The notes below the pieces were generated by a model that saw only the letters and a program-made list of their open reading frames with translations, ran no database searches and was not told where the DNA came from. A stretch of 64,000 bases of DNA from Candidatus Bathyarchaeia archaeon. GTDB lineage: Archaea > Asgardarchaeota > Heimdallarchaeia > JABLTI01. The stretch spans positions 18,034 to 82,033 of the forward strand of contig DATKZI010000044.1 in NCBI GenBank assembly GCA_035528035.1, read 5' to 3'. The first letter of the stretch is position 1, and each line of letters starts with the position of its first letter. The position numbers were made by a program, and so were the translations under genes. Of this stretch, positions 31,758-47,101 are shown in pieces.

Positions 31758-32557
31758 AAAACACTAACCTCATCCAGTATTTTTTGATAATCGAGATGTT
31801 TATTCTGGAAATAATTTACAAAGAAATTTTTGATTTGATTGAAAACCTCATATCTTGCAAGATAATTAGTTAAATTATGATCAGCATTTGGAATCATAAT
31901 AAATCGTTTTGGATTTTCTGCTTTAGAGTATAATTTCTTAATTCCTTCTAATGGAATGAATGTATCTTTTCCACCAGTGATTATAATAATTGGTCTTGGA
32001 GCAATTTCCTCGATACAATTCAGAGGATTATTACCTTGTATATCGCCAATTAATTGTTCTTTAATGCCTTTTTCAGGTAGTCTTACCAAACCTGCAAATT
32101 CCAGTCCTTCCCATATAGCATCAAATTCTGGATAATTAACCATAAATGAAAAATCATACAATGGTGCTTGTAAAGCTAAAGCTGCAATTCGATGATCTCG
32201 AGACGCATGACACGTAGCTATAGCACCTCCTAAGCTCACACCATATAAACCTATTTTCAATGGATCAACTTTAGGATAATTTGTAAGGTAAGTAACAATC
32301 TGATCTAAATTGGAAAGAAATTTTTGGATTGATGTTACTCCCGGACTTGAACTAAAACCTGTAAAATGAAAGACAAAATAAGCTATTCCCTCAGAAGTTA
32401 GCATAGAAGCTAGTTCTTCTTCTTTATCGAAATTATTAGTGATTAGTCCATGAACTTTACAAACAACTGGAAATCTTCCATGTTCATCATTTGGATAGAA
32501 TAATTTTGCACTTAGAGTACTGTGATAAAATGGTATAATCATTTCTTCGCTTATCAT
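31754..32557 (-). CDS. Alpha/beta-fold hydrolase (Ser-Asp-His), the last gene of the accC-BCCP operon
   Basis: It has the nucleophile elbow GVSLGG, then GGKDTFIP and ADHNL. It lies 31 nt downstream of the BCCP gene. Confidence 0.7.
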   Translation of the reverse strand: MISEEMIIPFYHSTLSAKLFYPNDEHGRFPVVCKVHGLITNNFDKEEELASMLTSEGIAYFVFHFTGFSSSPGVTSIQKFLSNLDQIVTYLTNYPKVDPLKIGLYGVSLGGAIATCHASRDHRIAALALQAPLYDFSFMVNYPEFDAIWEGLEFAGLVRLPEKGIKEQLIGDIQGNNPLNCIEEIAPRPIIIITGGKDTFIPLEGIKKLYSKAENPKRFIMIPNADHNLTNYLARYEVFNQIKNFFVNYFQNKHLDYQKILDEVSVF

Positions 32558-32588: not shown

Positions 32589-33068
32589 TCATTCCATAGG
32601 CTTAATTTTCACTAAAAGTTGTTTTGTAGATACTTGATCCCCATCATTAACAAAGATTTTTTCAACAATGCCGTCAATAGGAGAAAGAATTTCATTTCGC
32701 ATTTTCATTGATTCTAAAACAACCACACATTGCTGATCTTGGACTTGATCCCCAAGATTAACTCTTACTTCTACAATTTTACCTGGAATAGATGCTTTAA
32801 TATCTGCTCCTTTTCTAAATTTCAAATCGTTTCGCGCAAGTAATTGTGGTGCTGATCTGAAATCAAAATCAATTTCTTTTCCATCAACATGAATAGTATT
32901 ATCTTTATATTCAACTCGATATTCTCTACCATTAACAAATACACGATAAAATTTTCCGTTATAAAGAACCTCAGGTTTGAAATAATAATCTTTAATTTTG
33001 ATACCTTTTTTGGATTGTTCAAGATCTAATTCGGTACCATGTATACGAACTCTAAATTTTTTATCCAT
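32589..33068 (-). CDS. accB: Biotin carboxyl carrier protein
   Basis: The C-terminal biotinyl domain has VVLESMKMRNEI (an E-x-MKM biotinylation motif). Confidence 0.8.
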   Translation of the reverse strand: MDKKFRVRIHGTELDLEQSKKGIKIKDYYFKPEVLYNGKFYRVFVNGREYRVEYKDNTIHVDGKEIDFDFRSAPQLLARNDLKFRKGADIKASIPGKIVEVRVNLGDQVQDQQCVVVLESMKMRNEILSPIDGIVEKIFVNDGDQVSTKQLLVKIKPME

Positions 33069-33072
33069 AATC

Positions 33073-34545
33073 TCAATCCCTTCCTATAGCATCCATTTTA
33101 CCTTTCATTCGCCAATTTGACGATTGTTGTGGCAGATTCATTTCACTTTTCTTTAAACCAACAGCAAAAAGAGCAGAAGCAAGAGTGCAAACATTTTTCT
33201 CTAATTTTTCTAGTAGTTTTTGATCTTGAATAAAATTGATACTAATATCACCTTTTTGGAATTTTTCGTCATCAATTAATTCTTGAAAGAAGGAAATATT
33301 ATTTGGAAATCCAATAATAACTAATTCTTTCAAAGCGTTTTGAGCTCGACTAATAGCTTCTCCTCGAGTTTCAGCTGCAACGATCATTTTACCAATTAAA
33401 GAATCATAGCAATTTGGTATTGTGAAACCTTCATAAATTGCTGTATCGAATCTGACTTGTGGACCACCTGGTGCAGTGAATTTCTGAACTAATCCAGCTG
33501 TTGGTTGAAAATTATTTAATGGATCTTCTGCATTTATTCGAAGTTCCATGGCATGACCTCTAAATTTAATTTCTGATTGTTTAAAAGAAAGCTCTTCTCC
33601 TTGAGCGATTTTTATTTGCTCCTTAACAATATCTTTCCCTGTAAGCATTTCTGTGACCGGATGTTCAACTTGAATTCTTGGATTGATTTCATTAAATAAA
33701 ACTTTATTATCAAGATAAAGAAATTCAATTGTTCCAGCACTAATATAACCGAGATTTTTAGCTAATCGACACACTAAAGCACCAATTTCATTTCTTTTTA
33801 CACGAGTTATTGCTTTAGAAGGTGATTCCTCAAGTAATTTTTGGTTTCTACGTTGTATGGAACATTCTCTTTCACCAAGATGGACAACATTTCCAAAATT
33901 ATCAGCTAAAATTTGGAATTCAATGTGCCTTGGTTGATTGATAAATTTTTCAATAAAGACTTCTCCCCGACCAAAAGCTGCCTGTGCTTGAGCACTAGCA
34001 TTCTGTAGTGCTTTCTTTAATTCCTTGTCTGAATGAGCAAATTGTATTCCCATCCCACCTCCACCAAAAACTGCTTTTACTAGAACAGGATAGCCTATTT
34101 CATTTGCTTGTAGAATACCATCATTCTCATCAGTAATAATATCAGATCCTCGAGGAACCTCTAAACCTGCTTCAATAGCTTTTTGCCTAGATTTAACTTT
34201 ATTACCAAGAAGTTCTATAACATCAGCTGGAGGACCAATAAATTTAACCCCTTTCTCAGTGAGTTTTTTAGCAAATAGTTCGCTTTCCGAAAGAAAACCA
34301 TATCCTGGATGAACACTTTCTATACCTTCACGAACACAAATGGAGATTATTTGGTCAATATCCAAATAACCGGCAATCTTACCATCTTCAACTAGGGCAA
34401 ATGCTTCATCAGCTAATTTCACGTGAAGTGCATTTTTATCAACAGAGGTGTAAATAGCATAAGTTTTAATGTCTAATTCACGAGCAGCTCGTATAATACG
34501 AACAGCAATTTCACCTCTATTAGCAACAAGCAAAGTGCTAAACAT
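33073..34545 (-). CDS. accC: Biotin carboxylase subunit of acetyl/propionyl-CoA carboxylase
   Basis: LLVANRGEIAVRIIRA, GGGGMGIQ, ERECSIQRRNQKLLEE and NPRIQVEHPVTE are present. Confidence 0.92.
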   Translation of the reverse strand: MFSTLLVANRGEIAVRIIRAARELDIKTYAIYTSVDKNALHVKLADEAFALVEDGKIAGYLDIDQIISICVREGIESVHPGYGFLSESELFAKKLTEKGVKFIGPPADVIELLGNKVKSRQKAIEAGLEVPRGSDIITDENDGILQANEIGYPVLVKAVFGGGGMGIQFAHSDKELKKALQNASAQAQAAFGRGEVFIEKFINQPRHIEFQILADNFGNVVHLGERECSIQRRNQKLLEESPSKAITRVKRNEIGALVCRLAKNLGYISAGTIEFLYLDNKVLFNEINPRIQVEHPVTEMLTGKDIVKEQIKIAQGEELSFKQSEIKFRGHAMELRINAEDPLNNFQPTAGLVQKFTAPGGPQVRFDTAIYEGFTIPNCYDSLIGKMIVAAETRGEAISRAQNALKELVIIGFPNNISFFQELIDDEKFQKGDISINFIQDQKLLEKLEKNVCTLASALFAVGLKKSEMNLPQQSSNWRMKGKMDAIGRD

Positions 34546-34643: not shown

Positions 34644-34717
34644 ACAAGGTAACCTTTTGTTATACTTAATTTGCTTTTATCTTATAGTTTGTCTAAGATA
34701 AGCTATACAGGAGATTA

Positions 34718-36325
34718 ATGGCAATGAATATGAAATCGGATTTATCACAACATGGTGAGATTAACCTTAAGAAAAATAGTACTGAAAATAAAATAGATGA
34801 TTTATTAGAAAAAAGAGAAGATGCTTTGAAAGGTGGTGGAGAAGAAGCCATTCAAGCTCAACTCGAGAAAGGTAAATTAACTGCTCGTCAAAGAATAGAT
34901 ATTTTACTTGACCCAGGAACCTTTGTTGAAACAAATATGTTTGTTAAACATAAATGCAATAATTTTGGTTTGGAAAATAAGAAATATTACACCGATGGAG
35001 TAATTACTGGTTTCGGTCAAGTACATGGTCGTTTAGTTTATGTTTATAGTCAAGACTTTACTATCCTAGGTGGTAGCCTTGGTGAAGCTCATGCTAGAAA
35101 AATTTCCCAGTTAATGGATCAAGCAATCCAAAATGGTGCGCCATTAATTGGTTTTAATGATTCTGGTGGTGCAAGGATACAAGAAGGATCAAACTCCTTA
35201 GCAGGATATGGGGATATCTTTCTAAGGAATGTTCGCGCCTCAGGGATTATACCACAGATTTCTTGTATCGTAGGACCCTCTGCTGGAGGAGCAGTATATT
35301 CTCCTGCTTTGACCGATTTCATTGTCATGACAGAAAACACCTCATACATGTTTGTTACTGGTCCTGCAGTAGTAAAAACTGTAACCGGTGAGGAGACTTC
35401 TTTTGAAGAACTAGGTGGCGCATCTACCCATAGCACACAATCTGGAATCGCTCATTTGGTTGGTTCTGATGAGATCGAATCAATCGAGCTTATCAAAGCT
35501 ATTCTCTCCTTTTTGCCATCAAATAACTTAGAAGACCCACCACAAAAAGAAATCACAACAATTTCAGGATTGGAGTTAGAAAGTCTTGATGAAATTATTC
35601 CTGATGATCCTCTTGAGCCATATGATATGCGCGAAATAATCCTTAGAATTGTTGATAAAGGGAATTTTCTTGAGATACAAAAGAAATGGGCTCAAAATAT
35701 TATCATTGGATTTGGTCGATTAAATGGCTATCCAATAGGTATTGTTGCTAATCAACCCTGTATCTTAGCTGGTGCTTTAGATATAGATGCTTCAATTAAA
35801 GCAGCACGATTTATACGTTTTTGTGATTCCTTCAATATACCTATACTTACATTTGTTGATGTTCCAGGATTTTTACCTGGACTTGATCAAGAGCACAATG
35901 GTATCATAAAGCATGGTGCAAAATTAATCTATGCCTATGCTGAAGCTACTGTTCCTAAATTAACTGTTATTACTCGTAAAGCATATGGCGGAGCTTATAT
36001 AGTAATGGGTTCAAAACACCTAGGAAATGATACCAACTTTGCCTGGCCAACAGCAGAAATAGCAGTCATGGGTGCAGAAGGAGCAGCTCAGATCCTTTAC
36101 AGAAGAGAACTTGCTAAAGCAGAAAATCCATCTGAAATGCTTGAAATAATGAAGAATGAATATGCAGATGAATTTAACAATCCATATCTTGCAGCAGAAA
36201 GTGGCTATATTGATGATGTAATTGTTCCTAGTGAGACTCGTCAGAAATTAATTGCTGCTTTATGGCCTCTCCTACGAAAACGAGAGAGACGATTAAATAA
36301 GAAACATGGAAATGTCCCATTATAG
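34718..36325 (+). CDS. Acyl-CoA carboxylase carboxyltransferase subunit (PccB/AccD 12S type)
   Basis: KLTARQRIDILLDPGTF, FNDSGGARIQEG and VPKLTVITRKAYGGAY are present. Confidence 0.9.
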   Translation: MAMNMKSDLSQHGEINLKKNSTENKIDDLLEKREDALKGGGEEAIQAQLEKGKLTARQRIDILLDPGTFVETNMFVKHKCNNFGLENKKYYTDGVITGFGQVHGRLVYVYSQDFTILGGSLGEAHARKISQLMDQAIQNGAPLIGFNDSGGARIQEGSNSLAGYGDIFLRNVRASGIIPQISCIVGPSAGGAVYSPALTDFIVMTENTSYMFVTGPAVVKTVTGEETSFEELGGASTHSTQSGIAHLVGSDEIESIELIKAILSFLPSNNLEDPPQKEITTISGLELESLDEIIPDDPLEPYDMREIILRIVDKGNFLEIQKKWAQNIIIGFGRLNGYPIGIVANQPCILAGALDIDASIKAARFIRFCDSFNIPILTFVDVPGFLPGLDQEHNGIIKHGAKLIYAYAEATVPKLTVITRKAYGGAYIVMGSKHLGNDTNFAWPTAEIAVMGAEGAAQILYRRELAKAENPSEMLEIMKNEYADEFNNPYLAAESGYIDDVIVPSETRQKLIAALWPLLRKRERRLNKKHGNVPL

Positions 36326-36358
36326 TTAATTATCATCAAATAATTGGAGATAGTTTGA

Positions 36359-39300
36359 ATGGTTTTAATAAATGATTTTGATAGCTTCATGCAAATGCGT
36401 AAGCCTATTTTGGCTTATAATCCTCCAGGTATATTATCTGTTGATTTGCTAAAAACAGTGATAAGAGAAGGAGGTGTTGGTCTAGTTAATTTAGAGCGCA
36501 TGAAATTAAATGAAAGCAAAGAATTATTGAATGTGTGTTTGTCAGAATTACAGAATAATTGGGGTATTAGGATATCTAATAAACAACAATTAGAATTATT
36601 GCTTAATTTACCAGCAAATACTTCTCCTATACTTCTTATAACAAGCAATTTAGATTTAACACAAGCTGAGTTAGAAAAAATCAAAACTAAACAATTTATC
36701 ATTTTAGCTGAAGTAACCAATTTACAAGAAGCATATTCAAAGAAATGGGCTAGCAGTTATATCGTTAAGGGATACGAAGCAGGTGGTAGAATTGGTAATG
36801 AAACATCTTTTATTTTATCACAACAATTTGCAGATGCAGGTTTATCATTTATTGTTCAAGGAGGAGTTGGGTTATATACTTCCCCAGCAATTTTCATAGC
36901 TGGAGCAAAAGCCATTGTTCTTGACACTCAATTGTATCTTACACCAGAGTGCCCTCTACCTCAGAACATCAAAGATTTTCTTTCAAAATTAGATGCCACT
37001 GATACCAGGGTTTTAGGAGATTCGACAAATTATAAGTATCGAGTCTATGCAAGATTGGGGACAAAAATTGTTAATGATTTTATTATCAAAGAAAAAGAAT
37101 TACTTACTTTTAATAAAAAAGAACGAACGGAAAAAATTCAAAATGAGATATCTTCTCAACGAGAGATGTTTGAGAGTAATAATTTCATGAATAACTTGTT
37201 ACCTATGGGACAAGATATTTCTTTTGCTAAAATTTTAACTGATGAATTTGGCACAGTTACAGGAATCATCAATGGTTTACTTCGCCAAATTGAGAAGCAA
37301 ATTAAATCAGCCATAACAAACTATCCTTTACAGGAAAACAATCTCATATCGAAGGAACTTGGGATACGATACCCAATTATTCAAGGTCCTATGGCAAATG
37401 TTTCCGAGAGTCCTGTTTTTGCTAAACTTATATCAGATGCAGGTGGTTTACCATTTTTAGCTTTAGGTTCTCTGTTTAAAGGTCAAACAAGAACCTTGAT
37501 TACTAAAACTAAAGAAAAACTTGGAGATGCTCCTTTTGGTTGTGGTATTATTGGTTTAGAAGCAAATAAGAAAGCTCGAGATGAGCATCTAAAGATCATA
37601 CAAGAGCTTAAACCACCATTTGTTGTTGTTGCTGCAGGAACAATAGACCAAGCTAAAGAAGTAATGGGTTATGGAATCAAAACATTTCTCCACACTCCCT
37701 CTCCAGCGATATTCCGAGAAGCCTTTGAATCAGGAGTTAGTAATCTTGTTTTAGAAGGAATGGAATGTGGTGGTCATATTGGTGTTCTAACCAGTTTTGT
37801 TCTCTGGGAGCTTTCCCTTCATGAATTGTCAGCTAATAAAGAAAAAATTACCACCAACCAAGGTAAAATTAATGTTGCTTTTGCAGGAGGTATTGGTGAT
37901 AAATTTTCAGCTGCTATGGCAGGAATTCTTTGTTCTGCTCATCCAGAAATAATGAATGGTTTACTATGGGTAGGAACAGCTTATATTTTGGTCAAGGAAA
38001 TTGTAGAAACAGATACTATACAACCATTATATCAACAATTGGCATTGAATGCTAAAGAAACTGTTGTTGTTGGAGAAACAGTAAATACTCGAGCACGTTC
38101 AATTCCAACACCATTTACTAAAGTAATAATTGAACGAGAATTAGCACGTTTAAAAGAAGGAGTAAGTTTAGCTGATAGAAAACATCAATATGAACGAGAT
38201 AATTTAGGGTCTACACGAATTGCTGCCTTAGGAGAAATTTGGAATCCTGAAGGAGAAGATGATAAACCGAATCGTTTTATGCCTATAGACGAGAAAGGAC
38301 AATATCAGAAAGGCAATTATCTTATTGGTCAGATTATTGCCAGTTTAAGATGTATTCGAACTTTAGATGATCTCCATACTGATTTGATAATCAATTCAGA
38401 AGAACTTGTGAAAAAACGAGCTGAAAGTATTTCTGAAAGGTTGGTTCCCTCACAACAAAAGATTGAAAGCAGCTTAATTAGTGATGAAAGTGTTCTTCCT
38501 GAATATGACCTAAAATCTTTCGAAGACGAAGGAATAGCTATTGTAGGTTTAGGATGTGTCTTTCCTGATGCCTTAAATATCAATGCATTTTGGAATAATA
38601 TACTCAATAAAGTTTATTCAATTAAAGAAATACCATCTGAGAGATGGGCTGATAATATTGATCTTTTTTATGATCAAAATAAGGACGCTCCAAATAAATC
38701 GTATACAAAAATTGCTGCTTCTATTTCTAATTTTAATTTCAATTCACTTGAATTTAAAATCCCCCCAAAAGTTGCCATTACAATGGGCAGAGCTCAAAAA
38801 TTAGCTTTGGTTGCTGCTAAAGAAGCATTAGAAGATGCTAAAATGCTAAGTAGTGATTATGACCATTCTAGAACAGCAGTTATAATAGGCAATTCCATGG
38901 GTGATGAAATTAGAACAAGTCATTCTCGAAAGGTTTTCGCTCCAGAAGTTTTATCTAGAATTGAAAAATCATCTTCATTCTCAAATATTGATAATAAAAC
39001 TTGGGAGAAGATTAAAACTCAAGTATTAGCAGATTATGAAACACAGCTTGTTCCTATAAACGAAGATACCATGCCTGGAGAACTTTCTAATGTAATTGCT
39101 GGTCGTATCTCTAACACTTTTAATCTTCGTGGTAAAAATATGACTACTGATGCTGCTTGTGCTTCAAGTCTTGCAGCACTAAATGTAGCTGCAAAAGGTC
39201 TTCTCGATTTTGAATATGATATAGTTTTATGTGGAGGAGCAGATTGCTCGTTGGATCCACCTACTTTTATTAAATTTGCTAAGATAGGTGCTTTATCAGC

Positions 39301-42300
39301 TGAAGGTTCATATCCTTTTGATGATAGAGCTAATGGATTTGTTATGGGAGAAGGCGCAGGATTTTGTATTTTAAAACGACTCTCTGATGCAACAAGAGAT
39401 GGCGATAAAATTTATGCTGTTGTAAGAGGAATGGGTGCTTCTTCTGATGGAAGAGGGAAAGGTATTACTGCACCAAATCCTTCAGGTCAAAAACTAGCAA
39501 TAGAACGTGCACTTGAACAAGCTAAAATTAAATTTTCAGATATTCAACTTGTAGAAGCTCATGGAACAAGTACGATTGTTGGTGATGCTGTTGAATTACA
39601 AGTTCTAAATGAAATTGCAAAAAATGTTACTCCGGGATCAATTGCTATAGGCTCTATTAAAAGTCAAATTGGACATTTAAAAAGTGCTGCAGGTATTGCT
39701 TCACTAATAAAAACTGCTTTAGCATTACATCATAAAACATTACCTCCTTCCGTTAACTTTGAAAAACCTAATCAAAAGATTGACTGGAAAATCTCACCAT
39801 TTTATGTTAATGTTACTAAAAATGATTGGAATAAACCTGCGACAGATATTAGAATAGCTGGGATATCAGCATTTGGTTTTGGTGGGACAAATTATCATGC
39901 CATTTTAGAAGAATATATTCCTGGTAAAACTAAAGGTTATCTACCAAAAGTAATCTCAATTGAAGAGATTCAAAAAATATTTAGCAGTTTAAAAGCTACT
40001 AAACCAATTACTGCTAGCACCGATTTTGAAGAGGTTTTTGATAAAAAGGGTTGGCAGAATTACTATCAAAAAAATGTTCATTTAGAAACAGAAGCTTTAT
40101 TCATCGGAGCTAGTTCTAATGAAAAATTACTAGCTGAATTACAAAGATACCAAAGTAAAATTACAGCTACGACCTATCCAATTGATGGAATTGGCTTACG
40201 TATAAGAGATTTAGCTTTCGAAAGTTTAAGTGCTCTTTCTAATAAAAATAAAATTGGTTTTACAGCAAATTCTGTTGATGATATTCCTACAATAATTAAA
40301 ACAGCAATTGAAGGTTTAAATGATAAAACCAAAAGAACATTCTTACAAAATAAGGGAATCTTTTACAGTGATGACCATTCATTAGGCAAGATTGCTTTTC
40401 TATTTCCTGGGCAAGGAAGTCAATATGTTCGTATGGGCAAAGAACTTTGGGATAAATATGAAATTGTAAGAGAAACATTCAGAGAAGCAGATGAAATAAC
40501 ACAGAAAATGATGAATTTCAAAATTACTGAGGCTATTTTTGCTATAGGAAAAAATGATGATAAAGCAAATGAATTATTAAAGCAAACAGAAATTACTCAA
40601 CCAGCAATTTTTGTTCTTAATATAGCCATTTATCGTCTCCTAGAATCATTTGGAATTAAACCTGATTTTGTAGCTGGACATTCTCTTGGTGAATATTCAG
40701 CATTAGTTTCAGCAGGAATTTTAAGCTTCGGTGATGGTTTAAGAGCGGTTGTTCCTAGAGGTCAAGCTATGGCTGAATTTTCAACTAAAGATAAAGGGAT
40801 TATGGCCTCTGTAAGTGCTGGTTACGAAGAAATAGATGAACTCCTTCAGAAAATAGATGGCTATGTTATCTGTGCAAATAAAAATACTCCTAATCAAACA
40901 GTTATCTCTGGAGCAACAAAAACAGTAAAAGCAGCTATGAAGATATTTGCCGAAAAAGGAATTCAAGCAATACAATTACCTGTTTCTGCAGCATTTCATT
41001 CTAAAATAGTTGCACCTGCAGTTGATCATTTAAGAATTTCTTTAGAAAAATTAACATTCAATAAACCAAAAATGAATATTTCAAGCAATGTCACAGGCAA
41101 ACTTTATCCCACTACTCGAGATGAGATAATTAATCTTTTGTGTGAACAAATATCTTCACCCGTTGAGTGGATTAAACAAATAAAATCTATGTACGAAGAT
41201 TATGGAGTTAAAACTTTTATTGAGATTGGTCCAAAGTACGTTTTAACAAGTTTTACTCGAGCAATACTCGATGATAAGAAGGATTATTTCGCTTTAGCTT
41301 CCAATCATCCAAAGAAAGGAGCTATGCAACATTTCAATGAAGTAATTGCTGCCTTAGGAACATTTGGTTATCCATTGAAAATACCATCCTTAAATGATAA
41401 TCTCTATGCAGATGAATTCAGAAATCCTCTAAAGAGATTCTTTATCAGAAAGCCAATTGAAAGACAAACTTCAGTTGCAACTATAGTTAAAGAGTCTCCT
41501 TTCGATGTTTTATTGGATCAAGAATTAGAAAAATTAACTGGTGATAGTTCATTCAAAGATTATTTAGAATTACAAGGACCAGCCATTTCGGCTTTTCTCA
41601 AGGTAGGTTATAATACCTACAAAGATAAAATTGCTTCTGCAATAAAAGAAAAAGAAGAAATGGATAAACTTGAGATAAATACTGAACCAATTGGTGTGAC
41701 TGGTATTTCCATAGGACTTCCAGGAAAAAATAGACATGTTTTTGATGATTCTAATTTTGATGCAATACTCAATGGTCAGAATTTCATTGAGAAGATTCCT
41801 CTAGAATTCAGAAATAAAATGGTTGATAAGAATATTGTTAGATTAGTGAAGGATGCTGTTAAAGGTGCTCAATTCCAAACAATAACTGATGTAAAAGATG
41901 TAATCAAACTAGCAGCACAAAAAGGAGAATTTGATTTATCAAAAGAATATGGTATTGATGTTGAATTTACATCCGTTTTAGATATCACTTTCCAATTAGC
42001 CTTTGCTGCTGGAATTGAAGCATTACGCGATGCAGGAATACCTTTAGTACCAATGAAAACGCAAACATCAGTTGGTAAGGAAATTACTAAAGGTTGGGCA
42101 TTACCAGAATCGTTAAGAGATGATACCGGAATAGTTTTCGCTTCAGCTTTTCCTGGATATAGCAATTTAATATCAATAATTTCAAAATATCTTACAGATA
42201 AATACAGCAAGAAGAATAAGGAAGAAAAATTGGTTCTATATCAAGAACTAATAAATCAGATTTCTAATGAATCAGCTAAGAAGCAGATTAATACTTGGTT

Positions 42301-45300
42301 TGAAAAGAATAAAACACTATTAACTACTGAAGAAACACATTTTGAATTCAGTAGAAAATTCTTATTTGAAATTCTCTCTATGGGACATTCACAATTTGCT
42401 CAATTAATACGAGCACGAGGTCCAAATACCCAAGTCAATGCAGCATGTTCATCAACAACACAAGCCATTGCAATTGGTGAGGATTGGATTCGTAATGGTC
42501 GATGTAATAGAGTAATTGTTATTGCAGCAGATGATGTAACTAATGATGAAATGCTTGAATGGATCGCTTCAGGTTTTCTTGCAGTAGGTGCTGCAACAAC
42601 TAAAGAGAAGGTTGAGGAAGCAGCCTTACCATTCGATAACCGGAGACATGGTATGATTATCGGTATGGGTGCTGCTGGAATTATTTTGGAATCTGATAGT
42701 GTAATAAAGGCTCGAGGAGTTAAACCAATTGCTGATCTATTAGGCACACATATAGTGAATTCTGCTTTTCATGGAACACGATTAGACAGAGATCATATAT
42801 CTTCGCAAGTAGATGAATTTATTTCAAAGATTGAAAAGAGATACAAAATTTCTCGAGAGGAAATAGCTCGACAATTAGTTTTTGTAAGTCATGAGACATA
42901 TACACCTGCAAGAGGAGGAAGTGCTTCTGCTGAGATAGATGCTCTTAGAAGGACCTTTGGTAATTTTATTGATAATATCGTTATTGCTAATACTAAAGGT
43001 TTCACAGGGCATGCAATGGGAGCAGGAATAGAAGATGTTGTAGCAATTAAGATTTTAGAAAAAGGTATTGTTCCACCAGTAGCAAATTGGAAAGAACAAG
43101 ACCCTGAATTAGGTAAATTGAATCTTTCAAAAGGTGGAAAATATGATGTTAAATATGCTCTTCGATTTGCAGCAGGATTTGGTTCACAATTAACTTTAGC
43201 TTTATTTAGAGTTAATACACAACAGAATAGATTCCAAAGTGGTGAATATGACCAATGGTTACAATCTTTACATGGTAGTCGTCAAACCCTTGAAGTTGTT
43301 AACAAAACTTTACGTTTAAACAAAGATCCTTCACTCATTCAACAAAAACAAATTGAATTGAAATCAGAAATACTTTCGACTCAAGCTTCATCTATGAAAG
43401 AATTAGATAAAGATCTTTTAACAACTATTGTTAATTTAATTTCTGAAAAAACTGGCTATCCAGTTGATATGATTGAACCTAATATGCATCTTGAGGAAGA
43501 CTTGGGAATAGATACAGTCAAACAAGCTGAATTATTTGGCTTAATTAGAACTAAATACAATTTACCTCGAGAGGAGGGAGTTAGAATTCAAGAATATTCA
43601 TCAGTTAATAAAATAGCTGAATATATTTCTTCCAAATTATCTCCTGGAACATCCGCTCAAAAGGATGTTGTTCAACAGATAGCTATTACTGACGATAAAG
43701 TCTCGAGTAGCCTTGGTCAAAAAGATGATATTGTTAAAGAAATAACCAACATGATCTCTGAAAAAACTGGTTATCCAGTAGAGATGATCGAACCTGAAAT
43801 GGAATTAGAAGAAGACTTAGGTATTGATACTGTTAAACAAGCTGAAATGTTTGGTATAATACGAACAAAATGGAATCTACCTCGAGAAGAGGGGATAAAG
43901 ATCCAAGAATATTCTACTGTAAACAAAATAGCTGATTATATTCTTAATCGGTTAAAAGGTTCTGAAACCAAACAAACAATTTCTTCAACAGTCGATACTT
44001 CTGAAGCTTCTATGGATGAGATTATTCCCGCAAAGAGATTAGCAATTCAACTAATTGAAGCCCCTTTACCTAAAGTAGATAAACTTTCGTTATCAAAGAA
44101 GAAATTCATTATTGTAGGAGAAAGTAACCAATTTAGTGATGAATTGCTAGAAATTCTTCGAAAACAAAAAGCAACAATCGTAAATGTTCTTGATATTAAG
44201 AAAATTAATTCTGAAACTAAACTTAAACAAGAATTACCTACTGAAGAAATTGATGGTTTAATATACATTGAACCAAAAACAACACAAAATAATAAGCATA
44301 ATAATACAGCTAGAACACTATTCCTACTTTGTAAATTAACTAAATTTAGTGAAAAACCCTTCATTTTAACCATAAATAATTCAGATTCAGCTTTTGGATG
44401 GGAAGGAAAGACTTCTCCTATAACTGGTTCAATAACTGGTTTAACAAAATCGCTAGCTCGAGAATTCTCAAAGGGAATTATTAGAACTGTTTCATGCTTA
44501 AAACCAGAACAAGCTATTTCTGAATTAATTTCAGGTGATGGTTCAATTGAAATCTCTTATGATAAAGCAGGTAACAGAAGAATTTTTGCAACTCAAGAAT
44601 CACCTATCTCAACTAAACAAACACAATTCAAACCAACATCTGATGATCTAATAATTATCTCCGGTGGAGCTCAAGGTATTACTTATGAAATTACCAAAAA
44701 AATTGCTGAAAAATATAAAACAAAATTAGCTTTACTTGGCAGAACCAAATTACCTGAAAATATTGATGAATTAGTAGCATTGGACCAAAATGGTTTAGAT
44801 AATCTTAAAGCTCAAATGATCGAACAACTAAAAGCAAAAGAAGATAAAGTAACTCCTGTTATCATTGAAAAAGAATGGTCTAAGATAACTAAAGCTATTA
44901 GCGTTAAAAAAGCACTTAACTATCTTATCAAACAAGGTTCTCCAACAAGATATTATTCTGTTGATGTTATTAACAACGAAGAAATGGTTCAAACAATCCA
45001 AAAAATCACTAAAGACTTTAAGCAAATCGTAACCGGAATTGTTCATGGTGCTGGTTTAGAATCATCTAAATTAATTGGTGAGAAAAAAATAGACGATTTT
45101 GATAATGTCTACAACGTTAAAGCTATTGGTTTTGACAATTTATTAACAAATCTAGATGTAAAACAACTCAAGTTTGTTGTCTGTTTCTCCTCAGTTGCAG
45201 GAAGATTTGGAAATGCTGGGCAAGTGGATTATTCTGCTGCAAACGATTATCTAAGTAAAAGCTGTTGGCAATTACATTCACAAGGACTTCGAGCGATTTC

Positions 45301-47101
45301 TGTTTGTTGGTCAGCTTGGGATGAGATAGGGATGGCAACAAGAGGTTCTGTTATGAAGATTTTGAAATATGCTGGTGTAACACCACTAAAAGTTGAAGAT
45401 GGTGTTAATGCATTTATTCAAGAACTTGAATATGGTCAAGAAGCAGAAATTGTTATTGCTGGGAAATTAGGTGTTTTATTGGATTCACCAGCAGCATTTA
45501 TTTCAATTGATTCCAAATCCTATCCTTTAATTGGAGAATTTAAACGAAATTTTGATGGCTCAATAACAGCTGAAAGAACATTTAGTTTAGAAAATGATCT
45601 TTATCTTAATCACCACAGATTTGAGGATATACCTTATCTGCCAGGTGTTATGGGATTAGAATTATTTGTTGAATTAGCAAGAATAATGTATCCTTCAAAG
45701 ATAATAAATAGATTCGAAAATGTCTCCTTCAAATCAGCAGTCAAATTCAAGAATGATATCCCTAGAAAACTAAGATCTAAATTATCCTTTAGTAATGATT
45801 TAGCGAAAGTTATTTTAGAATCAGATTTTGAAAAGGATGGAGTAAAACTTGGTGAAACAAGAACACATTTTACTGCGGATATTGTTTTTGGTAAAAAAGA
45901 AATTAAAATAATAGATATACCAAAAATGAAATCAGGTTATCTTGTAAATAATTCTAGGATTTACAAAATTCTTCCACATAAGGAATTATTCCGAACTTTG
46001 AAAGGCATCAATGAAATTACTAAACAAATCATATCCATACCAACTGAAGTAAAAGGTAATCAATTTGCTTGGGATATTAAAGAATTATATGCTGAACCTT
46101 TAGTAATTGAAGCAGCATTTCAAACAATGGGACTCTTAGATATTATTAAAGATAACAAGTTAGGATTGCCTTTTAGCATAAAATCTCTTCAATATTATCA
46201 GACAAAAGAACAACCTGCATATATTTTTGGTACAAAAGTAGCTGATACAGATTTTGGTAGTTTATATAATTTTGAAGTTGTAACCAAAACTGGACAATTA
46301 CTTATGGAGGCTAATGGTTATGCAACAGTTCACGTTGATTTTGGTGCTGATCTTTCGGGAATTGATGATATTCAAATAGATCGAGTTAAACGATTGTTTT
46401 CGTTACCTCCTGGAACTTTTCTTGAAGTGAACAATGTATCACAAATAAAGAAAATGATAGAATCAAATCCTAATTTAGTTACAGATTATCTTCATCCTGA
46501 TGAAATAGAACATTTGAAAACACTTACAATAGAAAAACGAAGAAATGAATGGTTAAGTGGAATTATAGCTGTCAAAAAAGCCTTACAAAAATATAAACCT
46601 GAAATACAAATTAATAACATTAAAATAGAGAAAAACGAGTTAGGCAAACCCTTCATTAAATTGAACAAAAACGAAAGTATTTACGTTTCTATTACACATA
46701 GCAATAGTTTTGCTGTTGGGATAATAAATCCTTCAATTGATACAGGTATTGATCTAGAAATAATTGAAAAAAGAGACCAAGCAATTATTGATGAATTACT
46801 TAGTCCAAAGGACCAGGAATTTTTACAAAATAATAAACAAGCAATCACTGAAGAATTATTAACTAAAATATGGTCTGCAAAGGAAGCAGCTTCTAAAGTT
46901 TTAGGTGTTGGATTGAATATTGATTTGCATGATTTAATTGTCAGTAAATATGATGAACAAGAGATAACTATTCAAGTAAACCCAATTAAATTACCTCAAA
47001 ATAACAAACTAAAACCATACAGCAAAGATATTGAATTATCAACAAAACTCGATACAAATGAAGAATATGTTGCGGCAGTCTGCCGACTAAAAAGTTTATA
47101 G
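36359..47101 (+). CDS. Giant multidomain type I fatty-acid/polyketide synthase-like megasynthase (NMO-like, ER, KS, AT, KS, ACP, ACP, KR, DH, PPTase)
   Basis: It is one uninterrupted 3580-aa ORF, with GGAG 8 nt upstream of the ATG. All domain motifs were read directly from the sequence and are listed in the sub-features below. Confidence 0.9.
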   Translation: MVLINDFDSFMQMRKPILAYNPPGILSVDLLKTVIREGGVGLVNLERMKLNESKELLNVCLSELQNNWGIRISNKQQLELLLNLPANTSPILLITSNLDLTQAELEKIKTKQFIILAEVTNLQEAYSKKWASSYIVKGYEAGGRIGNETSFILSQQFADAGLSFIVQGGVGLYTSPAIFIAGAKAIVLDTQLYLTPECPLPQNIKDFLSKLDATDTRVLGDSTNYKYRVYARLGTKIVNDFIIKEKELLTFNKKERTEKIQNEISSQREMFESNNFMNNLLPMGQDISFAKILTDEFGTVTGIINGLLRQIEKQIKSAITNYPLQENNLISKELGIRYPIIQGPMANVSESPVFAKLISDAGGLPFLALGSLFKGQTRTLITKTKEKLGDAPFGCGIIGLEANKKARDEHLKIIQELKPPFVVVAAGTIDQAKEVMGYGIKTFLHTPSPAIFREAFESGVSNLVLEGMECGGHIGVLTSFVLWELSLHELSANKEKITTNQGKINVAFAGGIGDKFSAAMAGILCSAHPEIMNGLLWVGTAYILVKEIVETDTIQPLYQQLALNAKETVVVGETVNTRARSIPTPFTKVIIERELARLKEGVSLADRKHQYERDNLGSTRIAALGEIWNPEGEDDKPNRFMPIDEKGQYQKGNYLIGQIIASLRCIRTLDDLHTDLIINSEELVKKRAESISERLVPSQQKIESSLISDESVLPEYDLKSFEDEGIAIVGLGCVFPDALNINAFWNNILNKVYSIKEIPSERWADNIDLFYDQNKDAPNKSYTKIAASISNFNFNSLEFKIPPKVAITMGRAQKLALVAAKEALEDAKMLSSDYDHSRTAVIIGNSMGDEIRTSHSRKVFAPEVLSRIEKSSSFSNIDNKTWEKIKTQVLADYETQLVPINEDTMPGELSNVIAGRISNTFNLRGKNMTTDAACASSLAALNVAAKGLLDFEYDIVLCGGADCSLDPPTFIKFAKIGALSAEGSYPFDDRANGFVMGEGAGFCILKRLSDATRDGDKIYAVVRGMGASSDGRGKGITAPNPSGQKLAIERALEQAKIKFSDIQLVEAHGTSTIVGDAVELQVLNEIAKNVTPGSIAIGSIKSQIGHLKSAAGIASLIKTALALHHKTLPPSVNFEKPNQKIDWKISPFYVNVTKNDWNKPATDIRIAGISAFGFGGTNYHAILEEYIPGKTKGYLPKVISIEEIQKIFSSLKATKPITASTDFEEVFDKKGWQNYYQKNVHLETEALFIGASSNEKLLAELQRYQSKITATTYPIDGIGLRIRDLAFESLSALSNKNKIGFTANSVDDIPTIIKTAIEGLNDKTKRTFLQNKGIFYSDDHSLGKIAFLFPGQGSQYVRMGKELWDKYEIVRETFREADEITQKMMNFKITEAIFAIGKNDDKANELLKQTEITQPAIFVLNIAIYRLLESFGIKPDFVAGHSLGEYSALVSAGILSFGDGLRAVVPRGQAMAEFSTKDKGIMASVSAGYEEIDELLQKIDGYVICANKNTPNQTVISGATKTVKAAMKIFAEKGIQAIQLPVSAAFHSKIVAPAVDHLRISLEKLTFNKPKMNISSNVTGKLYPTTRDEIINLLCEQISSPVEWIKQIKSMYEDYGVKTFIEIGPKYVLTSFTRAILDDKKDYFALASNHPKKGAMQHFNEVIAALGTFGYPLKIPSLNDNLYADEFRNPLKRFFIRKPIERQTSVATIVKESPFDVLLDQELEKLTGDSSFKDYLELQGPAISAFLKVGYNTYKDKIASAIKEKEEMDKLEINTEPIGVTGISIGLPGKNRHVFDDSNFDAILNGQNFIEKIPLEFRNKMVDKNIVRLVKDAVKGAQFQTITDVKDVIKLAAQKGEFDLSKEYGIDVEFTSVLDITFQLAFAAGIEALRDAGIPLVPMKTQTSVGKEITKGWALPESLRDDTGIVFASAFPGYSNLISIISKYLTDKYSKKNKEEKLVLYQELINQISNESAKKQINTWFEKNKTLLTTEETHFEFSRKFLFEILSMGHSQFAQLIRARGPNTQVNAACSSTTQAIAIGEDWIRNGRCNRVIVIAADDVTNDEMLEWIASGFLAVGAATTKEKVEEAALPFDNRRHGMIIGMGAAGIILESDSVIKARGVKPIADLLGTHIVNSAFHGTRLDRDHISSQVDEFISKIEKRYKISREEIARQLVFVSHETYTPARGGSASAEIDALRRTFGNFIDNIVIANTKGFTGHAMGAGIEDVVAIKILEKGIVPPVANWKEQDPELGKLNLSKGGKYDVKYALRFAAGFGSQLTLALFRVNTQQNRFQSGEYDQWLQSLHGSRQTLEVVNKTLRLNKDPSLIQQKQIELKSEILSTQASSMKELDKDLLTTIVNLISEKTGYPVDMIEPNMHLEEDLGIDTVKQAELFGLIRTKYNLPREEGVRIQEYSSVNKIAEYISSKLSPGTSAQKDVVQQIAITDDKVSSSLGQKDDIVKEITNMISEKTGYPVEMIEPEMELEEDLGIDTVKQAEMFGIIRTKWNLPREEGIKIQEYSTVNKIADYILNRLKGSETKQTISSTVDTSEASMDEIIPAKRLAIQLIEAPLPKVDKLSLSKKKFIIVGESNQFSDELLEILRKQKATIVNVLDIKKINSETKLKQELPTEEIDGLIYIEPKTTQNNKHNNTARTLFLLCKLTKFSEKPFILTINNSDSAFGWEGKTSPITGSITGLTKSLAREFSKGIIRTVSCLKPEQAISELISGDGSIEISYDKAGNRRIFATQESPISTKQTQFKPTSDDLIIISGGAQGITYEITKKIAEKYKTKLALLGRTKLPENIDELVALDQNGLDNLKAQMIEQLKAKEDKVTPVIIEKEWSKITKAISVKKALNYLIKQGSPTRYYSVDVINNEEMVQTIQKITKDFKQIVTGIVHGAGLESSKLIGEKKIDDFDNVYNVKAIGFDNLLTNLDVKQLKFVVCFSSVAGRFGNAGQVDYSAANDYLSKSCWQLHSQGLRAISVCWSAWDEIGMATRGSVMKILKYAGVTPLKVEDGVNAFIQELEYGQEAEIVIAGKLGVLLDSPAAFISIDSKSYPLIGEFKRNFDGSITAERTFSLENDLYLNHHRFEDIPYLPGVMGLELFVELARIMYPSKIINRFENVSFKSAVKFKNDIPRKLRSKLSFSNDLAKVILESDFEKDGVKLGETRTHFTADIVFGKKEIKIIDIPKMKSGYLVNNSRIYKILPHKELFRTLKGINEITKQIISIPTEVKGNQFAWDIKELYAEPLVIEAAFQTMGLLDIIKDNKLGLPFSIKSLQYYQTKEQPAYIFGTKVADTDFGSLYNFEVVTKTGQLLMEANGYATVHVDFGADLSGIDDIQIDRVKRLFSLPPGTFLEVNNVSQIKKMIESNPNLVTDYLHPDEIEHLKTLTIEKRRNEWLSGIIAVKKALQKYKPEIQINNIKIEKNELGKPFIKLNKNESIYVSITHSNSFAVGIINPSIDTGIDLEIIEKRDQAIIDELLSPKDQEFLQNNKQAITEELLTKIWSAKEAASKVLGVGLNIDLHDLIVSKYDEQEITIQVNPIKLPQNNKLKPYSKDIELSTKLDTNEEYVAAVCRLKSL
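36395..36965 (+). other. Megasynthase domain: degenerate NMO/FabK-like TIM-barrel domain (copy 1)
   Basis: GGVGLVNL, VKGYEAGGRIG (Arg where the second copy has His) and IVQGGVG are present. There is no GPM motif. Confidence 0.5.
37361..38440 (+). other. Megasynthase domain: FMN-type enoyl reductase (NMO / FabK / PfaD-like, copy 2)
   Basis: IRYPIIQGPMANVSE, LVLEGMECGGHIG and AFAGGIGD are present. Confidence 0.7.
38531..39916 (+). other. Megasynthase domain: ketosynthase 1
   Basis: GIAIVGLGCVFP is present. The active-site Cys lies in TTDAACASSL (TGT 39158-39160), with HGTSTIVGD (His codon 39560) and SQIGHLKSAAG (His codon 39674). Confidence 0.9.
40388..41269 (+). other. Megasynthase domain: acyltransferase (malonyl-type)
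   Basis: FLFPGQGSQY, GHSLGEYSA (Ser codon 40682-40684), VVPRGQAM and VSAAFHS are present. Confidence 0.85.
41690..43213 (+). other. Megasynthase domain: second, divergent ketosynthase
   Basis: VNAACSSTTQAI retains the Cys (TGT 42446-42448). Both His residues are kept, in SHETYTPARGG (His codon 42890) and TKGFTGHAMGAG (His codon 43010). Confidence 0.75.
43412..43639 (+). other. Megasynthase domain: carrier protein 1 (PUFA-synthase-type ACP) with Thr at the attachment position
   Basis: The sequence is ISEKTGYPVDMIEPNMHLEEDLGIDTVKQAELFG. The Thr codon ACA lies at 43514-43516. Confidence 0.8.
43724..43954 (+). other. Megasynthase domain: carrier protein 2 with Thr at the attachment position
   Basis: The sequence is ISEKTGYPVEMIEPEMELEEDLGIDTVKQAEMFG. 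The Thr codon ACT lies at 43829-43831, 315 nt after the ACP1 site. Confidence 0.8.
44031..45490 (+). other. Megasynthase domain: ketoreductase (structural plus catalytic SDR subdomains)
   Basis: It has the Rossmann motif IIISGGAQGIT and the catalytic region FSSVAGRFGNAGQVDYSAANDYL (Tyr codon 45230-45232). Confidence 0.8.
45521..46345 (+). other. Megasynthase domain: PKS-type (double hotdog) dehydratase
   Basis: LNHHRFEDIPYLPGVMGLE matches the HxxxGxxxxP-like motif, with D in place of G. The His codons lie at 45611-45616. Confidence 0.65.
46484..47098 (+). other. Megasynthase domain: C-terminal 4'-phosphopantetheinyl transferase
   Basis: RRNEWLSGIIAVKKAL, ITHSNSFAVG, GIDLEIIE and WSAKEAASKVLG are present. 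Confidence 0.75.

What the first reader, a model, noticed from the sequence alone, without database searches (positions are those of the whole stretch)
43412..43954. Both tandem carrier domains have Thr instead of the phosphopantetheinyl-Ser
ACP1 reads HLEEDLGIDTVKQAELFG and ACP2 reads ELEEDLGIDTVKQAEMFG. In PUFA-synthase/PKS carriers the equivalent motif is LGIDS(I/L)K, and the Ser carries the 4'-phosphopantetheine arm.

Here the residue is Thr in both copies, encoded by different codons (ACA 43514-43516 and ACT 43829-43831). The two repeats have diverged at many other positions. That argues for a selected feature rather than a sequencing error or a freshly dead domain.

A dedicated PPTase domain is fused in cis. 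This suggests either a Thr-specific phosphopantetheinylation or a different prosthetic chemistry. I know of no natural carrier protein that uses Thr, but that is from memory and not from a search.
Basis: partly seen in the sequence, partly recalled or inferred. Interest (0 to 1): 0.8.

Follow-up and report, generated by a model that had tools for sequence, protein, structure and literature searches.

The report
Carrier proteins using threonine, not serine
Both acyl-carrier domains of a giant archaeal fatty-acid/polyketide synthase have threonine where every studied carrier protein has the cofactor-bearing serine, and this threonine is invariant across a large, widespread and unstudied enzyme family that almost always carries its own cofactor-attaching enzyme.

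Summary
ORF 36359-47101 (+, 3580 aa) reads ER-KS-AT-KS2-ACP-ACP-KR-DH-PPTase. Both ACPs read DLGIDTVKQAE, with Thr (ACA 43514-16, ACT 43829-31) at the canonical phosphopantetheinyl-Ser position. Sequence alignment to solved ACPs and an AlphaFold model both place it at the N-terminus of helix II.

It is a family trait, not an error or a dead domain. All 291 ACP motifs in 82 loci are Thr, using all four Thr codons. The motif hit at least 600 stretches in species-level genomes (Asgard, Thermoplasmatota, Chloroflexi, Elusimicrobia, Acidobacteria, Actinobacteria, Myxococcota and others). In an unbiased HMMER search, 103 of the top 150 proteins are all-Thr.

The family matches the uncharacterised "Type R" secondary lipid synthase of Shulse & Allen (2011). 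An Sfp-type PPTase with intact catalytic residues lies in 67 of 69 loci with enough flank, and no Ser-type ACP lies within 10 kb. Rare relatives with the same architecture carry Ser (P0164) or a Ser-Thr-Ser mix (P0213).

Best reading (about 0.7, inferred, not shown): the in-cluster PPTase puts 4'-phosphopantetheine on Thr. Ten full-text literature searches found no report of this. The window comes from a Heimdallarchaeota contig, and the synthase sits next to acetyl-CoA carboxylase genes.

The parts
36359..47101 (+). One 3580-aa megasynthase ORF: ER(NMO)-KS-AT-KS2-ACP-ACP-KR-DH-PPTase
   Evidence: ORF list, translation, Pfam domains.
37346..38134 (+). FMN-type enoyl reductase domain (NMO/FabK/PfaD-like), residues 330-592. 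It is preceded by a second, weaker NMO-like stretch (residues ~1-320).
   Evidence: PF03060 with 2 stretches; TIGR03151 FabK-like.
38528..39763 (+). Ketosynthase 1 (residues 724-1135), with Cys-His-His motifs DAACASS, EAHGTST and GHLKSAAG
   Evidence: PF00109/PF02801; motifs read.
40397..41347 (+). Acyltransferase, malonyl-type (GHSLGE, AAFHS), residues 1347-1663
   Evidence: PF00698; TIGR00128 fabD-like; motifs read.
41846..43228 (+). Second ketosynthase (the 'CLF' position of PfaA-like systems), which keeps the full Cys-His-His triad
   Evidence: Second stretch of PF00109/PF02801. Cys and both His are conserved in 59/59 family members (His2 in 58, one gap).
43424..43627 (+). Carrier domain ACP1 (residues 2356-2423)
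   Evidence: PF00550, 28.6 bits. AF2 four-helix bundle with pLDDT above 90. Foldseek matches to holo-ACPs, TM 0.8-0.88 normalised to the target.
43514..43516 (+). Thr2386 (ACA), at the position of the phosphopantetheinyl-Ser of ACP1
   Evidence: Aligned onto the DS Ser of PigH ACP 5y08. First residue of helix II in the AF2 model (T39 of the query).
43739..43942 (+). Carrier domain ACP2 (residues ~2461-2528)
   Evidence: PF00550, 23.8 bits; AF2 and Foldseek.
43829..43831 (+). Thr2491 (ACT), at the position of the phosphopantetheinyl-Ser of ACP2
   Evidence: Aligned onto the DS Ser of ACPs 6lvt and 2ehs and of the second ACP of 5y08. Helix II starts at T144 of the query.
44654..45325 (+). Ketoreductase (residues 2766-2989; YSAAN motif)
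   Evidence: PF08659; motif read.
45524..46327 (+). PKS-type dehydratase (residues 3056-3323)
   Evidence: PF21089 and PF14765.
46475..47083 (+). Sfp-type 4'-phosphopantetheinyl transferase domain fused in cis (SITHSN, GIDLE, WSAKEAASK)
   Evidence: PF01648, PF17837. Alignment to Sfp 1qr0/4mrt with H90, D107, E109, W147, K150, E151, K155 conserved.
34718..36325 (+). Acetyl-CoA carboxylase carboxyltransferase, 33 bases upstream of the synthase (malonyl-CoA supply)
   Evidence: PF01039, E 3.6e-196. CT is linked to the synthase in 28 related loci.
33073..34545 (-). Biotin carboxylase
   Evidence: PF02786/PF00289/PF02785. BC is linked in 30 related loci.
32589..33068 (-). Biotin carboxyl carrier protein
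   Evidence: PF00364.
30999..31757 (+). Biotin/lipoate protein ligase (BirA-like)
   Evidence: PF03099.
31754..32557 (-). Alpha/beta-hydrolase. Possibly the product-releasing thioesterase; this is inference only.
   Evidence: PF12146/PF00561. It was not found conserved in the related loci.

Best explanation
The window, from a Heimdallarchaeota (Asgard) metagenomic contig, encodes a self-contained iterative type I fatty-acid/polyketide synthase. It belongs to the uncharacterised 'Type R' PfaA-like secondary lipid synthase family, here fused into one polypeptide (ER-KS-AT-KS2-ACP-ACP-KR-DH-PPTase) and placed beside acetyl-CoA carboxylase genes.

Its two carrier domains are genuine four-helix ACPs. 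The attachment residue at the N-terminus of helix II is Thr instead of Ser, and this is the family norm (motif LE[AE]DLG[IV]DTVKQAE[LM]F).

Most likely mechanism (inferred, not shown): the cis or in-cluster Sfp-type PPTase transfers 4'-phosphopantetheine from CoA onto the Thr side-chain hydroxyl of each ACP. The resulting O-phosphopantetheinyl-threonine holo-carriers then shuttle malonyl and growing acyl thioesters between KS, KS2, KR, DH and ER. The product is expected to be a reduced long-chain fatty acyl compound.

Thr is specifically maintained against Ser, which is one nucleotide change away. Possible reasons are speculative: greater resistance of a Thr phosphodiester to beta-elimination or hydrolysis; insulation from housekeeping AcpS or AcpH; or a stiffer arm geometry, compensated by the smaller Val at +1 (DT-V versus DS-I).
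For: (1) Position. Thr aligns onto the Ppant-Ser of solved ACPs. It starts helix II in a confident AF2 model (pLDDT 86) whose fold matches holo-ACPs (TM 0.8-0.88 normalised to the target, rmsd 1.4-2.3 A).
(2) Selection. 291/291 ACP motifs in 82 loci are Thr, with codons ACG 145, ACC 109, ACT 20, ACA 17. There are 258 Thr against 1 Ser in 120 word-seeded hits. In the top 150 of an index-free HMMER search of 1.84 billion representatives, 103 proteins are all-Thr, 45 all-Ser and 1 mixed.
(3) The rest of the PPTase-recognition motif, DLGxD-, is invariant.
(4) A PPTase lies in 67 of 69 loci with at least 2.5 kb of downstream sequence. These PPTases keep Sfp H90, D107, E109, W147, K150, E151 and K155.
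(5) No Ser-type ACP lies within 10 kb of any of the 82 loci, so Thr-ACPs are the only local PPTase substrates.
(6) Ser and Thr exchange within the same synthase family. P0164 has the same architecture with four Ser ACPs and a fused PPTase. P0213 reads Ser-Thr-Ser. With the site masked, their ACPs have Thr-ACPs as nearest neighbours, and the NJ tree needs at least 6 switches. The KS2 domain of P0213 is about 59% identical to those of both the window protein and P0164.
(7) All catalytic domains look intact, and ACC genes are linked in about 30 loci, so the synthase is expected to work.
Against: There is no biochemical evidence: no mass shift has been measured and no holo form seen. E. coli ACP S36T is used as a non-modifiable variant (my own knowledge of Keating et al. 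1995 and Gully et al. 2003; plasmid pBAD-CBP-ACP(S36T) is listed in PMC10607373). So at least AcpS-type enzymes do not readily use Thr. I found no residue in the associated PPTases that would explain acceptance of a beta-branched acceptor. The Ser/Thr mixed protein P0213 is a single metagenomic fragment on a 3-kb contig. Host genomes were not examined as wholes, so a Ser-type carrier acting in trans from elsewhere cannot be excluded.
Confidence: 0.7

Rival explanations
1. The Thr-ACPs are never modified. They act as scaffolds, docking modules or regulators. The real acyl carrier would be a Ser-type ACP encoded elsewhere, or CoA itself (an ACP-independent route, as has been proposed for archaeal fatty-acid synthesis). 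The PPTase would serve another substrate.
For: Thr is generally regarded as a non-substrate for AcpS (background knowledge; the S36T construct is listed). A few clearly degenerate ACP-like domains with neither Ser nor Thr sit next to the Thr-ACPs in archaeal loci L002 and L006, so unmodified ACP-like modules do occur in this family.
Against: An unmodified site should drift, yet DLGxDT is invariant in 291/291 copies and copy number is 2-7 per locus, as in PUFA synthases. A catalytically intact PPTase is linked in 97% of loci with enough flank, and no other carrier lies nearby. The Ser-bearing members P0164 and P0213 have the same architecture.
Confidence: 0.12
2. The Thr carries a different prosthetic group or a different linkage. 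Examples would be an adduct other than plain 4'-phosphopantetheine, or an acyl-Ppant transferred directly from an acyl-CoA. In that case the carriers would work by chemistry distinct from canonical holo-ACPs.
For: The helix-II face is family-specific and nearly invariant (DTVKQAE against DSIKRVE in PfaA). This suggests co-adapted partners. Nothing here excludes a modified cofactor.
Against: The PPTases keep every Sfp catalytic residue that was examined. KS, AT, KR, DH and ER are standard thioester-handling domains. Ser-bearing relatives exist with the same architecture and a fused PPTase (P0164).
Confidence: 0.1
3. It is an artefact or decay: a sequencing or assembly error, or a recently inactivated pseudogene-like domain pair.
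For: None beyond the departure from the textbook motif.
Against: The two Thr codons differ. The repeats are 70% identical in DNA with many synonymous differences. The ORF is an intact 10.7 kb. The identical protein is recorded on a 152-kb contig. Family-wide conservation spans hundreds of genomes.
Confidence: 0.01

Closest known systems
'Type R' secondary lipid synthase gene cluster (Shulse & Allen 2011, PLoS One, PMC3098273)
   Same: The paper describes KS-MAT-CLF-ACP(3-6)-KR followed by a PPTase gene, and notes occasional linkage to acetyl-CoA carboxylase. It reports the cluster in Acidobacteria, Elusimicrobium minutum and Roseiflexus. The loci found here have the same order and come from the same phyla, including a MAG labelled E. 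minutum (L025).
   Different: The paper does not contain the words serine or threonine at all, and the product is unknown. Here the system is fused into one 3580-aa protein that includes ER and PPTase, has only two ACPs, and sits in an Asgard archaeon. A DH domain is also present, and the 'CLF' keeps its catalytic Cys.
PfaA of bacterial PUFA synthases (TIGR02813), with tandem ACPs carrying LGIDSIKRVEI
   Same: It is the best NCBIfam hit for the whole protein and for the ACP pair. Shared features are tandem beads-on-a-string ACPs with an EKTGYP...DLGID motif, KS-AT...KR order, a PfaD/FabK-type ER and an associated Sfp-type PPTase.
   Different: PfaA ACPs use Ser (DSIKRVE) and are all-Ser in the 45 Ser-type proteins seen. 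PfaA lacks the KS2 before the ACPs. The window protein scores 962.6 bits, below the 1010.1 cut-off. The helix-II face differs (T-V-K-Q-A against S-I-K-R-V).
Canonical carrier proteins (Pfam PF00550; E. coli AcpP Ser36, PigH doublet ACP 5y08)
   Same: Fold, motif position, DLGxD context and PPTase partnership.
   Different: The defining Ser is Thr. In E. coli AcpP the S36T change is used as a non-modifiable control (background knowledge; construct listed).
Sfp-type PPTases (Sfp 1qr0/4mrt, PfaE, HetI)
   Same: Two-lobed Sfp-type domain with H90, D107, E109, W147, K150, E151 and K155 conserved. Weak NCBIfam similarity to HetI.
   Different: It is fused to, or encoded beside, a synthase whose only carriers bear Thr. 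Family-typical residues at Sfp positions 28, 39, 40, 44 and 114 (E, K, R, W, R) differ from Sfp. Their meaning is unknown.

Membership tests
Carrier protein / PP-binding (PF00550) | Profile match above the curated threshold | tested here: met
   28.6 and 23.8 bits against a cut-off of 20.8.
Carrier protein / PP-binding (PF00550) | Four-helix ACP fold with the attachment residue at the N-terminus of helix II | tested here: met
   AF2 pLDDT is above 90 within the domains, and helix II begins at T39 and T144 of the query. Foldseek TM is 0.8-0.88 (normalised to the target) to holo-ACPs.
Carrier protein / PP-binding (PF00550) | Conserved Ser in the (D/H)S(L/I) motif that bears 4'-phosphopantetheine | tested here: not met
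   Thr in both copies and in 291/291 family motifs.
Carrier protein / PP-binding (PF00550) | Post-translational phosphopantetheinylation (holo form) | not testable with these tools
   This needs mass spectrometry. The only evidence here is circumstantial: PPTase linkage in 67/69 loci.
Type R secondary lipid synthase (Shulse & Allen 2011) | Domain order KS-MAT-CLF-ACPn-KR | tested here: met
   The definition is taken from PMC3098273.
Type R secondary lipid synthase (Shulse & Allen 2011) | PPTase immediately downstream | tested here: met
   Fused at the C-terminus in the window protein; present in 67/69 related loci.
Type R secondary lipid synthase (Shulse & Allen 2011) | Orthology to the clusters of the named type organisms (Koribacter, Solibacter, E. 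minutum, Roseiflexus) | tested here: inconclusive
   A MAG labelled Elusimicrobium minutum (L025) and many Acidobacteriota and Chloroflexi loci carry the same architecture and the DTVKQAE motif. The type strains themselves were not retrieved, and no KS phylogeny against the paper's tree was made.
PfaA, PUFA synthase subunit A (TIGR02813) | Whole-protein score above the curated cut-off | tested here: not met
   962.6 bits against a cut-off of 1010.1.
PfaA, PUFA synthase subunit A (TIGR02813) | Tandem ACPs with the DSIKRVE Ser motif, and KS-AT directly followed by the ACPs | tested here: not met
   The window has DTVKQAE and a KS2 inserted before the ACPs.
Sfp-type PPTase (PF01648 with an N-terminal lobe) | Mg/CoA-binding and catalytic residues (Sfp H90, D107, E109, E151, K155) | tested here: met
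Chain-length factor (KS-like, inactive) | Loss of the active-site Cys | tested here: not met
   Cys and both His are conserved in 59/59 family members (His2 in 58, one gap). The second KS is therefore probably catalytic.

The most novel reading that the evidence does not exclude
This would be a natural, ancient and widespread class of carrier proteins whose 4'-phosphopantetheine arm hangs on threonine (O-phosphopantetheinyl-threonine). It would be installed by a subfamily of Sfp-type PPTases that accept a beta-branched acceptor. That would be the first departure from the Ser rule for carrier proteins. It operates in a family of lipid synthases found in more than ten bacterial and archaeal phyla, including Asgard archaea, where the synthase sits beside acetyl-CoA carboxylase and could make fatty acids.
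Probability: 0.65. Interest if true: 0.85.

Novelty: new variant of a known kind. Interest (0 to 1): 0.78.

Why it matters
The Ser attachment site is treated as a defining invariant of acyl, peptidyl and aryl carrier proteins. It is built into PROSITE/Pfam-style motifs, into genome-mining tools that call carriers without the Ser 'inactive', and into the routine use of Ser-to-Ala or Ser-to-Thr mutants as dead controls.

A family with an invariant Thr, each member with its own PPTase, has several consequences:
- It would add a new post-translational modification.
- It would show that some Sfp-type PPTases accept Thr, which could be useful as an orthogonal protein-labelling pair.
- It means automated annotation may be mislabelling hundreds of functional synthases as defective.
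- It gives a simple sequence marker (DTVKQAE) for an uncharacterised lipid synthase family common in Acidobacteria, Chloroflexi, Elusimicrobia and several archaeal groups.

Separately, an Asgard archaeon carrying acetyl-CoA carboxylase next to a complete bacterial-type fatty-acyl synthase bears on the archaeal/bacterial lipid divide and on the origin of eukaryotic membranes.

Tried and rejected
- Literature. All ten permitted full-text searches used motif strings (DTVKQ, GIDTV and others), phrases for Thr phosphopantetheinylation, S36T, Asgard/archaeal PKS and Type R. None returned a report of a Thr carrier. Shulse & Allen 2011 and a 2026 survey of PUFA-synthase-like clusters mention only the conserved Ser, or neither residue. 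The E. minutum genome paper is not held.
- Curated families. No NCBIfam model is specific to this ACP or synthase.
- A specificity determinant for Thr in the PPTase. Ninety-one family PPTases were aligned with Sfp and with the PPTase of the Ser-type relative P0164. All conserved positions are shared, except that P0164 has K and A at two Gly positions (Sfp G74 and G105). No convincing determinant emerged.
- More mixed Ser/Thr synthases. A search seeded with the three ACPs of P0213 found none, so P0213 remains a single example on a 3-kb contig.
- An alternative attachment Ser. None lies near helix II. The Ser in the SEKTGYP stretch of helix I varies (S/A/V) across the family, and the EKTGYP motif itself also occurs in Ser-type PfaA ACPs.
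- Organism identification. tRNA and Rfam scans of the window found nothing. Identification came instead from 90%-identity protein clusters.
- An AF2 model of ACP docked on the PPTase was considered and not run. It could not distinguish Ser from Thr as the acceptor.
Full report
**1. The observation**

ORF 36359-47101 on the + strand encodes a 3580-aa protein. Pfam finds these domains in order:
- NMO-type enoyl reductase (two stretches)
- KS
- AT
- a second KS
- PP-binding
- KR
- PKS-type DH
- a C-terminal ACPS/4PPT_N phosphopantetheinyl transferase

Scanned alone, both carrier segments pass PF00550 (28.6 and 23.8 bits against a cut-off of 20.8). They read ...HLEEDLGIDTVKQAELFG... and ...ELEEDLGIDTVKQAEMFG... 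The Thr codons are ACA at 43514-43516 and ACT at 43829-43831.

The two domains are 72% identical in protein and 70% in DNA. Of the 57 identical residues, 24 use different codons.

**2. Is the Thr really at the attachment position?**

- HMMER alignments to solved structures put it on the DS serine of the PigH doublet ACP (5y08) and of the ACPs 6lvt and 2ehs.
- An AlphaFold2 model of the didomain, built on a 114-sequence alignment, has mean pLDDT 86, above 90 inside the domains, with a disordered linker at residues 84-102 of the query.
- In that model helix II begins exactly at T39 and T144 of the query.
- Foldseek matches the model to many holo- and acyl-ACPs, with TM 0.8-0.88 (normalised to the target) and rmsd 1.4-2.3 A.
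- There is no alternative Ser near helix II.

**3. Is it conserved?**

A word-seeded search with the didomain returned 210 proteins. In the best 120, the motif LEADLG[IV]DTVKQAE[LM]F is nearly invariant, with 258 Thr against 1 Ser. That search is biased towards shared words, so I ran an index-free phmmer search against 1.84 billion cluster representatives. It gave 4995 hits at E below 1e-3 and 632 at E below 1e-30. Of the top 150 proteins, 103 are all-Thr, 45 are all-Ser and 1 is mixed.

The residue tracks the architecture:

| Type | Domain order | Motif |
|---|---|---|
| Thr proteins | KS-AT-KS2-ACPn-KR-DH(-PPT) | DTVKQAE |
| Ser proteins | KS-AT-ACPn-KR (PfaA-type) | DSIKRVE |

The 80 loci kept come from Heimdallarchaeota, Thermoplasmatota, Methanobacteriota, Chloroflexi/Anaerolineae, Elusimicrobiota (including a MAG labelled E. 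minutum), Acidobacteriota, Actinobacteria (for example Nonomuraea rosea), Myxococcales, Desulfomonilales, Spirochaetota, Calditrichaeota and Gemmatimonadetes.

In these loci plus L001 and the window, all 291 ACP motifs are Thr, with 2-7 per locus. All four Thr codons are used: ACG 145, ACC 109, ACT 20, ACA 17. Ser is one nucleotide change away, so Thr is actively maintained against Ser.

**4. Ser/Thr exchange inside the family**

- P0164 has the Thr-family architecture with a fused PPTase but four Ser ACPs (DSVKVAE).
- P0193 and P0207 carry DSVKQAE.
- P0213 is a KS2-ACP3-KR fragment that reads Ser-Thr-Ser.
- With the attachment site and the four following residues masked, these Ser ACPs have Thr ACPs as nearest neighbours. 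A neighbour-joining tree needs at least 6 switches. Such short-domain trees are noisy.
- The KS2 of P0213 is about 59% identical to both the window protein and P0164. That is within the range seen between Thr-type members.
- The residue after the site covaries with it: T-V 374, S-I 208, T-I 13, S-V 10. These counts are not phylogenetically independent.

These data argue that Thr occupies a working attachment site that has exchanged with Ser during evolution.

**5. The partner enzyme**

Nearly all loci share the order KS-AT-KS2-ACPn-KR-DH-PPTase. An HMM built from the family's PPTases finds one in 67 of the 69 loci that have at least 2.5 kb downstream of KR/DH.

The window's PPTase aligns to Sfp (1qr0/4mrt) over both lobes. 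Across 91 family PPTases, Sfp positions H90, D107, E109, W147, K150, E151 and K155 are 93-100% conserved.

An iterative ACP search of every ORF of 50 aa or more within 10 kb of the 82 loci found 291 Thr domains, a few degenerate ACP-like domains and no Ser-type ACP. The Thr carriers are therefore the only local substrates for a very tightly linked, catalytically intact PPTase. I found no PPTase residue that would explain Thr acceptance.

**6. What the system is**

The architecture and phyletic spread match the 'Type R' secondary lipid synthase of Shulse & Allen (2011). That paper describes KS-MAT-CLF-ACP(3-6)-KR plus a PPTase, in Koribacter, Solibacter, E. minutum and Roseiflexus, with ACC linkage in Koribacter and an unknown product. 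The paper contains neither 'serine' nor 'threonine'.

PfaA (TIGR02813) is the best curated hit, but it falls below its cut-off: 962.6 against 1010.1 bits.

In the window the synthase also includes the ER and the PPTase. It follows the carboxyltransferase gene by 33 bases. Biotin carboxylase, BCCP and a biotin ligase lie just upstream. BC is linked in 30 related loci and CT in 28.

KS1, AT, KR and DH carry their catalytic motifs. The so-called CLF keeps Cys-His-His in 59/59 members, apart from one gap at the second His. The enzyme set is sufficient for iterative synthesis of a reduced fatty acyl chain from malonyl-CoA made next door.

**7. Source organism**

The identical protein lies on a 151,932-bp contig of JGI metagenome 3300031566. 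Window proteins fall in 90%-identity clusters with proteins of a Candidatus Heimdallarchaeota MAG (MBN1329620.1, MBN1329599.1). The window also encodes a TRAP-beta-like protein of the kind regarded as a eukaryotic signature protein. GC content is about 31%.

**8. Mechanism and rivals**

| Reading | Confidence |
|---|---|
| The in-cluster Sfp-type PPTase phosphopantetheinylates the Thr hydroxyl, and the holo-Thr-ACPs work like ordinary carriers | about 0.7 |
| Unmodified scaffold domains, with a carrier acting in trans or CoA substrates | about 0.12 |
| A different prosthetic group or linkage | about 0.1 |
| Artefact | below 0.01 |

Shown here: position, fold, selection, PPTase linkage and Ser/Thr exchange. 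Inferred: the modification itself and the reason for Thr.

The main counter-argument is that S36T E. coli ACP is used as a non-modifiable control. This is background knowledge; the construct is listed in PMC10607373.

**9. Novelty**

The synthase family has been named since 2011 but is uncharacterised. The Thr attachment site appears unreported in the library searched. All ten searches found nothing relevant, and the library lacks most subscription journals.

I rate this a new variant of a known kind, with interest 0.78. A specialist would be surprised, the claim can be tested with one co-expression and mass-spectrometry experiment, and it affects how carrier domains are called active or inactive in genome mining.

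Noticed in passing
window 30999-47101: An Asgard (Heimdallarchaeota) contig carries biotin ligase, BCCP, biotin carboxylase and carboxyltransferase directly beside a complete bacterial-type iterative fatty-acyl synthase. This is a self-contained route from malonyl-CoA to a fatty acyl chain in an archaeon, relevant to the lipid divide. The same ACC linkage recurs in about 30 related bacterial and archaeal loci.
   Followed up: partly
window 41846-43228, and family members P0121-P0270: The domain annotated in the literature as a chain-length factor keeps the full Cys-His-His ketosynthase triad in 59/59 family members. These synthases therefore probably have two catalytic ketosynthases and no true CLF.
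   Followed up: partly
window 24998-26470 (-): A 490-aa protein matches TRAP_beta (translocon-associated protein beta, PF05753) plus a BatD/DUF11-like domain. This is a eukaryotic-signature-type protein, consistent with an Asgard origin.
   Followed up: no
L002 4741-14242 and L006 5186-14152: Archaeal orthologues (Heimdallarchaeota, and an uncultured archaeon) carry extra degenerate ACP-like domains with neither Ser nor Thr at the site (for example ADLGLSESSF, KEMGINDSDM, DDLGLDGTTK) next to the Thr-ACPs. They may be decayed or structural carrier copies.
   Followed up: no
L084 (contig JADCLS010000015.1), 4474-5016 and 8001-17705: The Ser-type relative P0164 (same architecture, fused PPTase) lies near an Arf/Ras/Roc small GTPase and a TPR protein. 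This suggests another Asgard-like host, so Ser and Thr versions may both occur within Asgard archaea.
   Followed up: no
window 36359-37345: The first ~320 residues of the megasynthase form a second, much weaker NMO-like stretch ahead of the clear ER domain (Pfam reports two NMO stretches). Homologues with ER1-ER2 fusions exist. Whether this is a split, duplicated or degenerate ER was not resolved.
   Followed up: no
window 29245-30438 (-): A branched-chain polyamine synthase BpsA C-terminal domain is fused to an N-terminal MarR/winged-helix domain. This is an unusual fusion of an enzyme with a DNA-binding domain.
   Followed up: no
window 31754-32557 (-): An alpha/beta-hydrolase sits between the biotin ligase and BCCP genes, overlapping the 3' end of the ligase gene by 4 bases on the opposite strand. 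It may be the missing thioesterase or release enzyme, but it is not conserved in the related loci.
   Followed up: partly
P0280 (protein): One stand-alone tandem ACP protein has copies reading DTVKQAE, DPVKQAE, ETVKQAE and DTVKQAE. Individual copies in a tandem array can therefore lose the Asp-Thr pair while the others keep it.
   Followed up: no
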